Positions 5,284-14,272 of a stretch of 15,153 nucleotides of DNA are shown in pieces (positions within the stretch are counted from its first letter, which is position 1; each line of letters begins with the position of its first letter). Source of the DNA: Amoebidium appalachense (taxonomy: Eukaryota; Protista; Ichthyosporea); the NCBI GenBank assembly GCA_963693365.1, contig CAVNZM010000071.1, forward strand, positions 1-15,153, in the 5' to 3' direction. The position numbers were made by a program, and so were the translations under genes. The notes below the pieces were generated by a model. It was not told the DNA's origin, made no database searches, and worked only from the letters and a program-made list of their open reading frames with translations.

Positions 5284-6243
5284 ATGACATCTCTCCTCCA
5301 TTTCATCAGAAGTAATGGAAAATCGTTTGAAGTACGAAAAAGAAATGGAGAATTCGATGTCGTCGACTGCTTTACCGTAGCTTATAACGGAACGCGCAGC
5401 ACGGCAACAAAGGCCCGGAAATTGGTGCTGGAGCGGAATCGTGCTCTGTTTGAAAAAGAAACCACGGTCTCGGGTGCACGTGGCTCCCACTATTATTTTG
5501 CTCCTGCGGACACAATCAGCCAAATGTTAATGGCCACCGAGAGCGCCACATCCGTGGAGTTTTTAGAGGCAGACGGCGAGCGCTTCTTCCGCGCGATAGG
5601 CACCTCTCAGACCCAAGTGGACCAAGTAGTTCAAATGCGCGAAAGAACCGCTCGACGCAGCCCACCCGGCCACCCTTGCGCTATGGATGTGCCCACACAT
5701 GATGTCTCTGCACACAACGCGAGTGCGTCGACAGCGGGTAAACAGAACACACTCTTGTTGCCACCCCCCCTGCCTAACTACGAGCAGGATGTACACCACG
5801 GTGAGCCTGGCGGCGAGCACAACTACCACTCCATACTGCACGTAGCGGCACAGCAGGCAGAAGCGACTGCACTCGCCGCGAAAGTAGCGGTTTTTCAACA
5901 CGAGGAGTTTAAATTAAAACTCCAACTTGAGCACGACGAGCGCGAGATGAAGCGTCGCCACGACGAGAGGATGATGGAACTCCGTATACAAAATACACGC
6001 CTCGAGATAGAACTGAGGAGGATGGGAACAAACGAACAGAGGGAACAGGAGACGGTGATGGATGGCGAGAGGGGGCTGTGGGATATGTGGCGGAGGTCGT
6101 GGACGGGGCAGACGGCGATGGAGGGACGGGGGCAGATGGGGAAATGGTCGAGGCGGATGGGGGCGGGGAGACCCAAATGTCTGAGGGACACGGGGAGGAT
6201 CATCCGTTGTGTAACGACTGTGATAACGAGGAGATGGGTGTAA
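5284..6243 (+). CDS. Gene A, 5' part: Bro-N-like/viral-type DNA-binding domain plus coiled coil; probably continuous with 6078-6983 through a 1-nt frameshift near 6070-6075
   Basis: Long ORF from ATG 5284. VRKRNGEFDVVDCF..FAPADTISQMLMATESATSVEFLEADGERFFRAIG..VDQV resembles Bro-N-related N-terminal domains of algal/giant-virus proteins (by eye). Charged heptad stretch EEFKLKLQLEHDEREMKRRHDERMMELRIQNTRLEIELRR. Confidence 0.65.
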   Translation: MTSLLHFIRSNGKSFEVRKRNGEFDVVDCFTVAYNGTRSTATKARKLVLERNRALFEKETTVSGARGSHYYFAPADTISQMLMATESATSVEFLEADGERFFRAIGTSQTQVDQVVQMRERTARRSPPGHPCAMDVPTHDVSAHNASASTAGKQNTLLLPPPLPNYEQDVHHGEPGGEHNYHSILHVAAQQAEATALAAKVAVFQHEEFKLKLQLEHDEREMKRRHDERMMELRIQNTRLEIELRRMGTNEQREQETVMDGERGLWDMWRRSWTGQTAMEGRGQMGKWSRRMGAGRPKCLRDTGRIIRCVTTVITRRWV

Positions 6244-6983
6244 AGGAGACGGAACACGAACAGGAGAGCACAGTGACAGAGGAACGGCGTGCCACGCAAG
6301 AGGATAAACTGAAACGGCTACAAGATATTATCAACAGTGCCCGAGGGTTCGAGCGGGTCTACCGCGATGAAATTTATGACAAACCCGTCTACGACGAAAG
6401 CGGCGTCAACCGCATCCTTGTATTTTATCAGCAGACACTGGAAAGCCTCATCCTACAGGTCGACGGCGTGTGGGATAGCACGGACACGGATACCGTCCGC
6501 GCCAAAGGAAAACGGGTTGTCGACGAGATCCTGGGGCTTCTCGCCAAGGCCGACGCACAGCACACAGCACCCCAAAAGCGCCCTGCTTCGGACACCCGCG
6601 CCGCCGACACCAGACGTGCTAAGCGCACCAAGAGGACGCCCACTCACAGGGAGCGGCTAGTTAGCAAATTCTTCGAGTGGCTCAAGGAATCGGCCCCCTG
6701 TGGTGCGGTCTGTCTTCTTCGTCACCTCAGGGACCTGTTCCACAGGGAGGCTAGCAGTGAGAGCAGGACTTTCGCACGAGCGCCTCTGTCTACGGATGAA
6801 GTAGCTAGGTTTTTGGGCAAGCAGGTATCTGTGTATTTTTGTACTATAAACAGGATAGAGGTGTTGCGTGATGAAAAAGGGGAAGTTTATGCCGTGAGAC
6901 TCCCTAAGAACCGTTTAGGAAAGCCCGGCTATCCGCGCCATAAGGCAAGAGGGTACTTTCTCGGGAATCTGGTGTGTGCTTGA
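6078..6983 (+). CDS. Gene A, 3' part: acidic linker, BAG-like domain (~6306-6554), basic NLS, possible winged-helix C-terminus
   Basis: QQTLESLILQVDGV..DTVRAKGKRVVDEILGLLAKAD fits BAG helices 2-3 (L..LL.LDGV..VR..RK..V..I..LL..LD). RRAKRTKR is NLS-like. The ORF has only a GTG start; one extra G in the G5 run at 6071-6075 fuses it to the upstream ORF. Confidence 0.7.
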   Translation: MGYVAEVVDGADGDGGTGADGEMVEADGGGETQMSEGHGEDHPLCNDCDNEEMGVKETEHEQESTVTEERRATQEDKLKRLQDIINSARGFERVYRDEIYDKPVYDESGVNRILVFYQQTLESLILQVDGVWDSTDTDTVRAKGKRVVDEILGLLAKADAQHTAPQKRPASDTRAADTRRAKRTKRTPTHRERLVSKFFEWLKESAPCGAVCLLRHLRDLFHREASSESRTFARAPLSTDEVARFLGKQVSVYFCTINRIEVLRDEKGEVYAVRLPKNRLGKPGYPRHKARGYFLGNLVCA

Positions 6984-7118
6984 TAAGGCCAACGGGCTTG
7001 GCGAAGTGAAAACGTGGTTGTAACAATGCATTAGACACCCCCTTCCGGTCCGGTCTGACCCCTTTGGACCGCAGTCTGGTCCGGTTCGGTCTGAACAGGG
7101 GTCCTCGCCCGGCAGAGT

Positions 7119-7235
7119 CCCCCCCTCCCCCCCGCCCGTGTGTATGTTCTTTTGTGCCCCCATATCCCCCCCCTCCCCCCCGCCCGTGTGTATGTTCTTT
7201 TGTGCCCCCATATCCCCCCCTCCCCCCCCCCGCCC
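7119..7235. repeat. 48-bp tandem repeat (2 copies plus partial)
   Basis: GCCCGTGTGTATGTTCTTTTGTGCCCCCATATCCCC starts at 7134 and at 7182. Confidence 0.9.
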
Positions 7236-7306
7236 CCACACACACACACACGCACACACACACACGTGTCACACACGCACACACACACACACACACACAC
7301 ACACAC

Positions 7307-12347: not shown

Positions 12348-13115
12348 ATGTACATGTCACAGACACTGCACACCGCGATGGAAATCGGCGCTCCTGGCGC
12401 TGCGCCTGTCTCCCAGCCGGCCGTATTCAACACCTTCACGTTTCCACCCACCCCACAACCCGACCTGGACATCATACAGAGTACCGACTTCATTCCGCTG
12501 ACGTCCGACGATTTTGCTGCTTTTGACAACCAACTAGGTGACGGCTCCATGCTCCATGCGCCCACCCCGACGACGGCTAAGAGCCACGGCCAGCACCACG
12601 TCTTCGACTTCGACATGGTCTGCGGCGAGACAATCCCCCCCTCTCCGGCGCGTCCTGTTCCCGCACGTCTGCATCTGCAAGCGGTCTCCTCTCACGCCCC
12701 CACGCTGCCACCCACCACAACCACGCCAGCAACAACATGGTTTGGCCGGCTCAGGTCTGCCGAGAACCAGGATTCCGATACGAGACAATGGAAGCGCTCG
12801 CGCGCTAACATCTCAATGACCAAAAAGCCACCTGGTGAAATCAAAGCCCTCGCCACTGCTGGTGATTGGAGGCGCCATCTTGCACCCCTGCCTGTTTCAC
12901 AGATGTTGGGCGAGGCGCTCGACAGACTTAGCCCGTTGTGCCTTGTACCGTTCATCAGCTGCACGCTCCCTTTTGCAGCTAGCAAAGAGCAGCTCTCCTA
13001 CCTCGACGCTGGTAGCATCTGTGCGCTTCTCGGCTTCAGGGACATCGATGAGATACGCGACCGTCTCGATCAGGCCAAAATCGCAAACGCCCGTGATGTA
13101 CCAGGCACAGAAGCG
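12348..13115 (+). CDS. Gene C exon 1 (join 12348-13115,13550-14272; ~496 aa): Pro/Thr-rich disordered N-terminus, then first half of a Bro-N-like domain
   Basis: ORF 12348 reads as protein up to GCG|GTAGGA (13115/13116), after which it runs into microsatellite. YLDAGSICALLGFRDIDEIRD resembles Bro-N FxxxDVCxxLGYxN. Confidence 0.7.
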
Positions 13116-13136
13116 GTAGGAGCCCCCCCCCCCCCC

Positions 13137-13358
13137 CCACACACGCACACACAAGGCTTCCACACACACACACACACACACGCACACACAAGGCTTCCAC
13201 ACACACGCACACACACGCACACACAAGGCTTCCACACACACGCACACACAAGGCTTCCACACACACACACACACAAGGCTTCACACACGCACACACAAGG
13301 CTTCCACACACACACACACACACACAAGGCTTCACACATGCACACACAAGGCTTCCAC
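13137..13358. repeat. Minisatellite inside the gene C intron (13116-13549): 8 x [(CA)n-AAGGCTTC]
   Basis: CAAGGCTTC occurs eight times, separated by CA tracts of variable length. Confidence 0.9.
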
Positions 13359-13549
13359 CGACACTTTATCAACACCCCTACTAAATGGTGGATCCGGGCA
13401 CCATAGTGGTCGTGGCTACGGTGGCGTTTTGTGTGGGCATGTTCTTTCTCAGTGTCCTTGACTATCTCTTCCCCGTGTTCTCGGATCCGATTAAGGGGGA
13501 CCCACCCCCGCCATACTCAATCCATGCTGATACTTGGTGATTCCTACAG

Positions 13550-14272
13550 GGTTCCCCGCACTACTACAAGGAGGGCAACTTCATGCTGGTCTCGCCCGCT
13601 GCGTTTCTTCACCTGACCACCCAGGTCTTGTACGAGTCCCCCCTGGCCCTCGATTTTCTGGGATGGTTTAACAGCGCCCGCAACAAGGAGCTGCACTTGC
13701 ACGAAACCCGGCTCTATGAGAAGACCCGCGGCGCGCCCCCTTCCACCACCCCTCTGGATGCCACCCGCCACATTCGCGCTACCTTTGTCGGTTTCCTGGT
13801 GGCCACACTCAGCTCGACATCCGTGCTTGACGTCCACAGCCTGGTGACCATCCTTGAAAAGGTGGCCAATGTGCAAGTCACTTCACGCTTCAAGACCCGC
13901 AACATCTGCGCCCCGCACGCCGAGGCGCTGGTTTTCAAGGTGCTTGCCCAGCGCATCAATATAGACACGGGCGTTTCGATAGCGTCTGCGCTCGACATCA
14001 ACACGTTGCACCTCTACACGTTTCTCTCGCGCGCCCTTGAGGCTCTGGATGTTGACGTACCCCATCCACACGGCGTCCCTGCCAGCAGCACCCACAAGGA
14101 CCCCCAGCTGCGCGACCTGAGGAAGCTGGGTCGCTCCCTCGAGAAGGACTTTGCCGGCATACGCCAGTTGCCCCTGGAGCCCAAGTCCTTCTTCTATGCC
14201 ATGCCGGAGCGCCAGGACACCCCGGCCGGACACGAAGTGTGCGCGTGCTTCAGGATGGATCGGAGTCTTTAG
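13550..14272 (+). CDS. Gene C exon 2: second half of the Bro-N-like domain plus unknown helical domain
   Basis: TTCCTACAG|GGT acceptor (13549/13550) is in frame with ORF 13583-14272. FMLVSPAAFLHLTT..SPLALDFLGWF resembles Bro-N xxxSEsGLYxLxxxSxxPxAxxFxxWV. High GC3. Further 3' splicing cannot be excluded. Confidence 0.75.
   Translation, partial: GSPHYYKEGNFMLVSPAAFLHLTTQVLYESPLALDFLGWFNSARNKELHLHETRLYEKTRGAPPSTTPLDATRHIRATFVGFLVATLSSTSVLDVHSLVTILEKVANVQVTSRFKTRNICAPHAEALVFKVLAQRINIDTGVSIASALDINTLHLYTFLSRALEALDVDVPHPHGVPASSTHKDPQLRDLRKLGRSLEKDFAGIRQLPLEPKSFFYAMPERQDTPAGHEVCACFRMDRSL

What the first reader, a model, noticed from the sequence alone, without database searches (positions are those of the whole stretch)
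5284..14272. Cluster of intron-containing, eukaryote-adapted antirepressor-like (Bro-N/AntA/MSV199) genes
Seen: three same-strand genes with mutually divergent proteins. B and C have CCAAT+TATA promoters and spliceosomal introns. Known: Bro-N, AntA and MSV199 domains are typical of phages and large DNA viruses and are shuffled onto diverse C-terminal domains; they are not standard cellular eukaryotic transcription factors. Inference: an endogenised giant-virus or large mobile-element segment whose DNA-binding regulators were expanded and intronised, or a host-domesticated transcription-factor family. Domain calls are by eye only.
Basis: partly seen in the sequence, partly recalled or inferred. 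Interest (0 to 1): 0.75.

Follow-up and report, generated by a model that had tools for sequence, protein, structure and literature searches.

The report
Intron-bearing family of virus-type DNA-binding genes
Two of the three genes are split by an intron and belong to one multicopy family in a repeat-rich eukaryotic genome; their proteins likely carry a DNA-binding domain of a kind otherwise seen in phages and giant viruses, which would make them viral regulators converted into host-style genes.

Summary
Partly confirmed. Genes B (9119-11048) and C (12348-14272) each have one phase-0 GT-AG intron and CCAAT-rich upstream DNA. B's intron is supported by a contiguous homolog (P0006) and by an inverted paralog remnant in the window that has the same splice acceptor with a different intron. 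B's N-terminal domain aligns across the splice junction with phage AntA and a Bro-N subgroup (HH probability about 60, 0 of 150 shuffles), but Pfam, NCBIfam and PHROGs give no hit and the fold test failed. C's N-domain call is weak. Gene A has no intron, is frameshifted in this copy, does not match the B/C family, and its Bro-N call found no support. B has many diverged copies in three sequencing runs and shows purifying selection. The window holds no viral hallmark gene, is 30% coding, and is full of arrays and inverted repeats. Best reading: a virus-derived regulator family spread as cargo of repeat DNA, not an intact viral insertion. Host, expression and mobiliser are unknown.

The parts
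9119..9421 (+). Gene B exon 1: N-terminal extension and first half of the AntA/MSV199-like domain
   Evidence: (24% identity over 80 aa to the start of P0006, pairwise E 6e-10)
9422..10031 (+). Gene B intron, 610 nt, phase 0, with repeated GATTGG..TGACGTCATCACTTT motifs
   Evidence: contigs with another intron at the same donor
10032..11048 (+). Gene B exon 2: second half of the N-domain, alanine-rich linker, family-specific helical domain, basic tail
8719..9118 (+). Upstream region of B: CCAAT cluster and TATA box at 9021
   Evidence: 7 vs 1.28 expected, 0 of 300 shuffles
12348..13115 (+). Gene C exon 1: long Pro/Thr-rich extension, then the first half of a putative N-domain
   Evidence: weak Bro-N match of 30 columns, 2 of 150 shuffles
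13116..13549 (+). Gene C intron, 434 nt, phase 0, CA-rich repeats
   Evidence: junction falls next to B's junction in the alignment
13550..14272 (+). Gene C exon 2, containing the same C-terminal domain as B
   Evidence: 23.6 bits; 24.2 with B left out of the profile; best of 1000 shuffles 5.5 and 8.1
11848..12347 (+). Upstream region of C: CCAAT cluster, TATA-like TATTTAA at 12277
   Evidence: 9 vs 1.87 expected, 0 of 300 shuffles
2969..3359 (-). Broken paralog of B: 172-nt GT-AG intron (3359-3188) and the first 73 codons of exon 2 (3187-2969), ending in a TG microsatellite
   Evidence: dN/dS about 0.13 over 50 codons
5284..6983 (+). Gene A, no intron, frameshifted in this copy near 6070-6090: unassigned N-domain, predicted coiled coil, acidic stretch, weak BAG match at about 6423-6557, unassigned basic C-domain
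   Evidence: (BAG E 0.0054, 17.6 bits, below the 23.4 cut-off)
8700..8738 (+). Near-palindromic module (ATGATAGCGCTATTAT) after a CA run, upstream of B; second copy at 11481-11517 upstream of C; also in both arms of the large inverted repeat
11481..11517 (+). Second copy of the upstream module, between B and C
   Evidence: 93% over 29 nt to 8710-8738
7220..8610 (+). Tandem array of a unit of about 160 nt (8 exact cores), each with a GTAAGT donor-like word
3351..3812 (-). Three units of the same array in the opposite orientation; the last unit supplies the donor of the remnant's intron
3967..5115 (.). Non-coding element with long inverted arms (3967-4476 and 4692-5115) between TA runs, MITE-like

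Best explanation
B, C and the remnant at 2969-3187 are members of one multicopy, intron-bearing gene family whose proteins likely join a phage/giant-virus-type DNA-binding domain (AntA/MSV199-like) to a family-specific helical domain, and which likely spreads as cargo of repeat DNA rather than as part of an intact virus. Shown: gene structure, paralogy of B and C, many diverged copies of B, purifying selection, embedding in arrays and inverted repeats. Inferred: the N-domain came from a virus or phage; an ancestor gained one intron in the middle of that domain and a CCAAT/TATA promoter, so that host RNA polymerase II and the spliceosome can express it; copies then multiplied and decayed by duplication and by deletion at microsatellites. 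Proposed mechanism (untested): the protein binds the motifs repeated in the family's own introns and flanks (AAAGTGATGACGTCA-like words, or the palindrome ATAGCGCTAT) and regulates the element's genes. Gene A is an unrelated neighbour in the same repeat field.
For: Paralogy: the B-family C-domain profile scores C at 23.6 bits against a best of 5.5 in 1000 shuffles, and 24.2 with B left out; 122 colinear HH columns. Intron: P0006 is one uninterrupted ORF matching both B exons; the remnant has an acceptor at the same codon with an unrelated intron; contigs keep the donor at 9422 and then diverge (loose end at 9423 in X6, joint 9427-9565); both introns are phase 0 and fall in adjacent alignment columns (low-confidence alignment). 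N-domain: hhalign to 12 AntA domains, 82 columns, E 1e-3, and to a Bro-N subgroup, 73 columns, E 2.7e-4, the two best of 36 pairs; 0 of 150 column shuffles reached either; with context pseudocounts probability 62 and 59. ESM Atlas for P0006 residues 1-160: 0.93 to Nucleocytoviricota clusters (one with MSV199 on 18% of members) and 0.91 to a cluster with AntA on 91%. Multicopy: 114, 309 and 107 contigs from runs X1, X2 and X6 lie on 2.67 kb of B in all identity classes from 80 to 100%, with up to 6 contigs differing at one place. Selection: dN/dS about 0.13 between B and the remnant; 11 of the 16 listed exon-2 differences are at third positions; the two listed exon-2 indels are 21 and 3 nt. Context: 30% of the window and 50% of the finding is coding; arrays and inverted repeats.
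Against: No Pfam, NCBIfam or PHROG hit to AntA, MSV199, Bro-N or KilA-N for any piece or for P0006. Single-sequence HMM scores for B's N-domain were only marginal (7 of 300 shuffles for AntA). The Atlas answer warns that only 2 of its ten best named hits share a family or clan, so the exact family label is doubtful; B exon 2 alone scored only 0.78-0.80. C's N-domain is not recognised by the B-family N-domain profile (466 of 1000 shuffles score as well), and its Bro-N match (E 0.013) is no better than two control pairs (0.011, 0.016). No transposase, recombinase or target-site duplication was found in the window, so the carrier element is not identified.
Confidence: 0.5

Rival explanations
1. 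The cluster is an eroded piece of an endogenous giant virus or polinton-like virus, and B and C are its intron-bearing, host-style (latency) regulators.
For: The nearest Atlas clusters for the N-domain are Nucleocytoviricota. KilA, Bro-N and MSV199 occur with varied partner domains in NCLDV (PMC3493329, table passage), and Bro-N in polinton-like viruses (PMC12721341, passages). An active endogenous giant virus has 61 of 506 genes with spliceosomal introns, enriched in its latency set (bioRxiv 10.64898/2026.10.09.758095, passages). A broken XPG/Exo1-like nuclease gene lies at 127-860 (weak).
Against: All 10 ATG-started ORFs of 150 aa or more are A, B, C, their overlapping or antisense frames, or low-complexity repeats; no capsid, polymerase or ATPase candidate remains. 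Coding density is 30%. Described giant-virus insertions in Amoebidium are gene-rich with few to no introns (PMC11244446 section 7).
Confidence: 0.2
2. B and C are a domesticated host transcription-factor family, a parallel to fungal SBF/APSES factors that came from viral KilA-N.
For: Host-type promoters and introns, strong GC3 bias in B (0.82-0.85), purifying selection, deep divergence between B and C, and a long low-complexity extension on C that could be an activation region. Homologs at 41-49% identity occur in several unrelated datasets. Precedent: PMC4862756 (passages).
Against: Many near-identical and truncated copies, a broken copy in the window and tandem amplification next to it are typical of selfish DNA.
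Confidence: 0.2
3. The antirepressor likeness is chance; B and C are an orphan multicopy family of unknown origin.
For: No curated profile detects the domain; HH probabilities are only about 60; the predicted N-domain has pLDDT below 50.
Against: Two independent methods point to the same group of families, and the alignment is colinear over about 80 columns across the splice junction with 0 of 150 shuffles reaching it.
Confidence: 0.1

Closest known systems
Phage antirepressor N-domains AntA (PF08346) and Bro-N (PF02498), and the NCLDV MSV199 domain (PF10553)
   Same: Colinear profile match of B's N-domain to AntA and to one Bro-N subgroup; language-model neighbours in these families; N-domain followed by a helical linker and a second domain.
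   Different: Below every curated cut-off; split by a spliceosomal intron; joined to a C-domain with no Pfam, phage, viral-contig or clear structural match.
Fungal SBF/APSES factors and the 1000+ KilA-N domains of Trichomonas vaginalis (PMC4862756, passages)
   Same: A viral-type DNA-binding domain housed in nuclear genes of a eukaryote and expanded.
   Different: Here the domain is closer to AntA than to KilA-N (HH E 1e-3 vs 0.04), and no host function is shown.
Giant repeats of Amoebidium: giant-virus insertions, adintoviruses, Plavaka-associated tandem gene clusters (PMC11244446 sections 7-8)
   Same: Clusters of repetitive genes with few introns and no close database hits; the Plavaka type is the closest in layout.
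   Different: No Plavaka transposase, tyrosine recombinase or viral core gene in the window; the text and supplement text searched do not mention AntA, Bro-N, KilA or MSV199; the host of this window is not established.
Intron-bearing latency genes of punuivirus in Chlamydomonas (bioRxiv 10.64898/2026.10.09.758095, passages)
   Same: Virus-type genes with spliceosomal introns and host-style regulation.
   Different: Those sit in one intact, gene-dense viral genome; these are scattered multicopy genes among microsatellites and arrays.

Membership tests
AntA (PF08346) | Pfam profile score at or above the cut-off | tested here: not met
   No hit for B exons, domain pieces or the contiguous homolog P0006
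AntA (PF08346) | Remote profile-profile similarity over the whole domain (gene B family) | tested here: met
   82 columns, E 1e-3, 0 of 150 shuffles; probability 62 with context; moderate strength
MSV199 (PF10553) | Pfam score or similarity to members | tested here: inconclusive
   No Pfam hit; Atlas 0.93 to a cluster with MSV199 on 18% of members; no reference members could be fetched (0 of 301 genomes)
Bro-N (PF02498) | Similarity of gene C's N-domain | tested here: inconclusive
   30 columns, E 0.007-0.013, 2 of 150 shuffles, level with control pairs
Bro-N / AntA / KilA-N / Rha | Similarity of gene A's N-domain | tested here: not met
   Best E 0.05-0.06; 8 and 14 of 150 shuffles score as well; small bacterial reference sets only
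AntA / Bro-N / KilA-N group | Shared fold of the DNA-binding domain | tested here: inconclusive
   pLDDT below 50 over most of the domain in P0006; A model mean 54; fold searches uninformative
AntA / Bro-N / KilA-N group | DNA binding or antirepressor activity | not testable with these tools
   needs a binding assay
Giant endogenous viral element or polinton-like virus | Core viral genes (capsid, PolB, packaging ATPase, VLTF3) in a gene-dense region | tested here: inconclusive
   None in 15 kb, 30% coding; flanks unavailable, no whole genome held
Transposon-borne giant repeat (Plavaka-associated type) | Tandem cluster of repetitive, intron-poor genes | tested here: met
   A, B, C and a remnant with 0-1 intron each; B has many diverged copies and A at least two versions
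Transposon-borne giant repeat (Plavaka-associated type) | Flanking transposase or tyrosine recombinase, defined ends | tested here: inconclusive
   None in the window; flanks unavailable
Domesticated host transcription factor | Expression and fixed syntenic position | not testable with these tools
   No RNA holder listed; no genome held
BAG domain (PF02179), gene A | Pfam score at or above 23.4 bits | tested here: not met
   17.6 bits, E 0.0054, second half of the profile only; a lead

The most novel reading that the evidence does not exclude
A eukaryotic lineage has turned a phage/giant-virus antirepressor-type domain into an expanded, spliced, RNA-polymerase-II-transcribed transcription-factor family with its own partner domain: an origin of eukaryotic regulators from viral DNA-binding domains independent of fungal APSES, caught while copies still move on repeat DNA and carry arrays of their own binding sites in introns and flanks.
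Probability: 0.2. Interest if true: 0.8.

Novelty: new variant of a known kind. Interest (0 to 1): 0.52.

Why it matters
The best-studied case of a viral DNA-binding domain becoming a eukaryotic regulator is fungal SBF/APSES. An intron-bearing, selected, multicopy family built on a different viral domain would give a second case, apparently at an intermediate stage, in which one can test when introns, host promoters and host function were gained. It also defines a conserved protein domain with no family assignment. If the genes are only silent cargo of repeats, the interest falls to a catalogue entry.

Tried and rejected
Family libraries: Pfam, PHROGs and NCBIfam (56) gave no significant domain for A, B, C or the homologs. 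Relatives with genomic context: none in viral contigs (7 scans), metagenome contigs, genome contigs (71) or the phage collection; these scans need short exact patterns or close similarity, so they do not show absence. C exon 2 had no homolog among 721 candidates; P0006 residues 40-160 found only itself. Folds: P0006 model, no Foldseek match in the viral or PDB libraries; VIA-align best Z 6.2, with several death-fold domains at Z 4.5-5.5, under the tool's own threshold for helical domains, so not claimed. A N-domain model, no match. Expression: no RNA holder listed; run X22 gave no cover of gene A; neither is evidence on expression. No Rfam family or tRNA (110, 111). Earlier findings: three look-ups empty, one unrelated note. 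The codon comparison was out of register by one codon and was redone. A paper looked up for contamination of Daphnia assemblies did not address it (PMC6299612, passages). An intron in gene A was rejected: the two ORFs overlap, and other copies differ by an indel in that stretch.
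Full report
The window is eukaryotic-looking DNA rich in CA/TG microsatellites and poly-C runs. No whole genome is held. The finding covers three plus-strand coding regions, A, B and C.

Gene structure. B runs from ATG 9119 to 11048 with a 610-nt phase-0 intron (9422-10031); C runs from ATG 12348 to 14272 with a 434-nt phase-0 intron (13116-13549); unspliced, both hit a stop. Three lines support B's intron without RNA. First, the search of cluster representatives with exon 2 returned 7 proteins at E up to 0.001; one, P0006, is a single 310-aa ORF that matches exon 1 and exon 2 in order. 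P0006 may be a transcript or an intronless gene; its source does not say. Second, an inverted remnant at 3187-2969 has an AG acceptor at the same codon, preceded by an unrelated 172-nt intron. Third, contigs laid on B keep the donor at 9422 and then diverge. C's intron rests on sequence signals and on its position next to B's junction in a low-confidence alignment. CCAAT words are enriched upstream of B (7 vs 1.28) and C (9 vs 1.87), 0 of 300 shuffles each, but also inside B's intron (6 vs 1.22); of 13 regions tested, the coding ones showed no enrichment. B has a clear TATA box at 9021, C only TATTTAA at 12277. Gene A has no intron: it is two overlapping ORFs. A contig of run X1 spans 5852-6167 with a gap that is not a multiple of three, and X2 contigs have a loose end at 6076, so other copies differ there and this copy looks broken.

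B and C are paralogs. A profile of the C-terminal domain of B and six homologs scores C exon 2 at 23.6 bits, against 5.5 for the best of 1000 shuffles and -1.3 for the reversed sequence; with B left out, 24.2 against 8.1. HH alignment is colinear over 122 columns. Neither part of A matches the family profile. The domain folds as a confident helical bundle (pLDDT about 75-90) and has no Pfam hit and no clear structural match.

The N-domain. No curated library recognises it. I therefore collected Pfam-verified domains from Bacillota genomes: 12 AntA, 28 plus 15 Bro-N, 18 KilA-N, 9 Rha (truncated or split matches were left out; MSV199 gave 0 of 301 genomes). Of 36 profile pairs, the two best were the B-family N-domain against a Bro-N subgroup (E 2.7e-4, 73 columns; my label 'DinD-like' for it is recalled) and against AntA (E 1e-3, 82 columns). 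Neither was reached by 150 column shuffles; with context pseudocounts the probabilities were 59 and 62. The alignment runs across the splice junction. The ESM Atlas put P0006 residues 1-160 next to Nucleocytoviricota clusters at 0.93 (MSV199 on 18% of one) and an AntA cluster at 0.91, while warning that its named hits disagree on family; B exon 2 alone gave the same families at 0.78-0.80, lead level only. The fold test failed for lack of alignment depth. For C the match is 30 columns at E 0.013, level with control pairs, and the B-family N-domain profile does not detect it. For A there is no support; its only lead is a BAG match below cut-off.

Copy state and selection. Twenty of 24 listed runs, under four coded organism labels, hold part of 9000-14300; none is on record as RNA. 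On 2.67 kb around B, runs X1, X2 and X6 laid 114, 309 and 107 contigs spread over all identity classes from 80 to 100%, with up to six contigs differing at one place: direct evidence of a family of diverged copies. Contig depths on B are far above those of long divergent contigs in the same run (331 vs 24 in X6), but the tool states that depth is no copy number. Of the 40 differences shown (329 in all), 16 lie in exon 2 and 11 of those are at third codon positions. B and the remnant give dN/dS about 0.13 over 50 codons. Gene A has at least two versions in X1 and X2 and is covered by one 2.1-kb contig in X6.

Context. The window is 30% coding, and all 10 ATG-started ORFs of 150 aa or more are accounted for by A, B, C, overlapping or antisense frames, or low-complexity repeats. 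A 160-nt unit forms arrays at 3351-3812 and 7220-8610 in opposite orientations; an element with long inverted arms lies at 3967-5115; a near-palindromic module occurs upstream of B and C and in both arms of that element; an AAGTGATGACGTCA-like word recurs 8 times at up to 2 mismatches, 5 of them in B's intron. No relative was found in viral, metagenome, prokaryote or phage collections, searches of limited reach. The only named homologs are gene models from Daphnia sinensis and Daphnia pulex assemblies, on contigs of 183 and 35 kb. The host is not established. [quoted passage not shown]

Mechanism. Most likely (0.5) a viral or phage AntA/MSV199-type regulator was captured, gained one intron and a polymerase II promoter, and multiplied as cargo of repeat DNA; binding to its own repeated motifs is a proposal only. 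Rivals are an eroded viral insertion (0.2; introns occur in 61 of 506 genes of punuivirus, bioRxiv 10.64898/2026.10.09.758095, passages only, supplements not seen), a domesticated host family like fungal SBF/APSES (0.2; PMC4862756, passages) and a chance likeness (0.1). Bro-N, KilA and MSV199 in NCLDV and polinton-like viruses are documented (PMC3493329, one passage; PMC12721341, passages).

Novelty. Six paper searches listed nothing whose title or abstract start describes a spliced AntA/MSV199-type family in a eukaryote; the library is incomplete. The kind of event is known from KilA-N, so this is a new variant of a known kind. Interest 0.52: a real, selected, unannotated family with a moderately supported viral domain, but one of the three genes drops out, and host, expression and mobiliser remain open.

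Noticed in passing
window 127-860 (+): Broken XPG/Exo1-like nuclease gene in three ORF pieces (Pfam XPG_N E 0.08, XPG_I E 0.0013 and 0.09; weak match to exonuclease 1 chains, E 0.08).
   Followed up: partly
window 2918-2897 (-): A 21-nt piece reading EFNVVEM followed by GTAAGC resembles, by eye, the end of B exon 1 and its donor; downstream on that strand lies the 92-nt tandem repeat 2715-2885 with the same TGACGTCATCACTTT motif as B's intron. Probably a second broken paralog.
   Followed up: partly
window 3351-3812 and 7220-8610: The 160-nt array unit contains a GTAAGT donor word, and the last left-hand unit supplies the donor of the remnant's intron; the array may be an amplified exon/intron boundary. 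The two arrays face in opposite directions around gene A.
   Followed up: partly
window 3967-5115: MITE-like element with arms of about 430-510 nt; many contigs in runs X2 and X6 fit it, and it shares the palindromic module found upstream of B and C.
   Followed up: partly
window 6423-6557 (+): Weak BAG-domain match inside gene A (E 0.0054); would suggest an Hsp70 co-factor module.
   Followed up: partly
P0007, residues about 70-382: The gene model from a Daphnia pulex assembly fuses a B-family tail to an unrelated domain that looks by eye like a cysteine protease (recalled motif); no Pfam, PHROG, PDB or viral-contig match.
   Followed up: partly
P0002, residues about 98-250: The gene model from a Daphnia sinensis assembly reads through what appears to be the same intron, with a duplicated repeat, so the annotation there is probably wrong.
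   Followed up: no
model of P0006, residues 165-288: The family C-domain is a confident helical bundle whose top structural neighbours include several death-fold domains at Z 4.5-5.5, below significance.
   Followed up: partly
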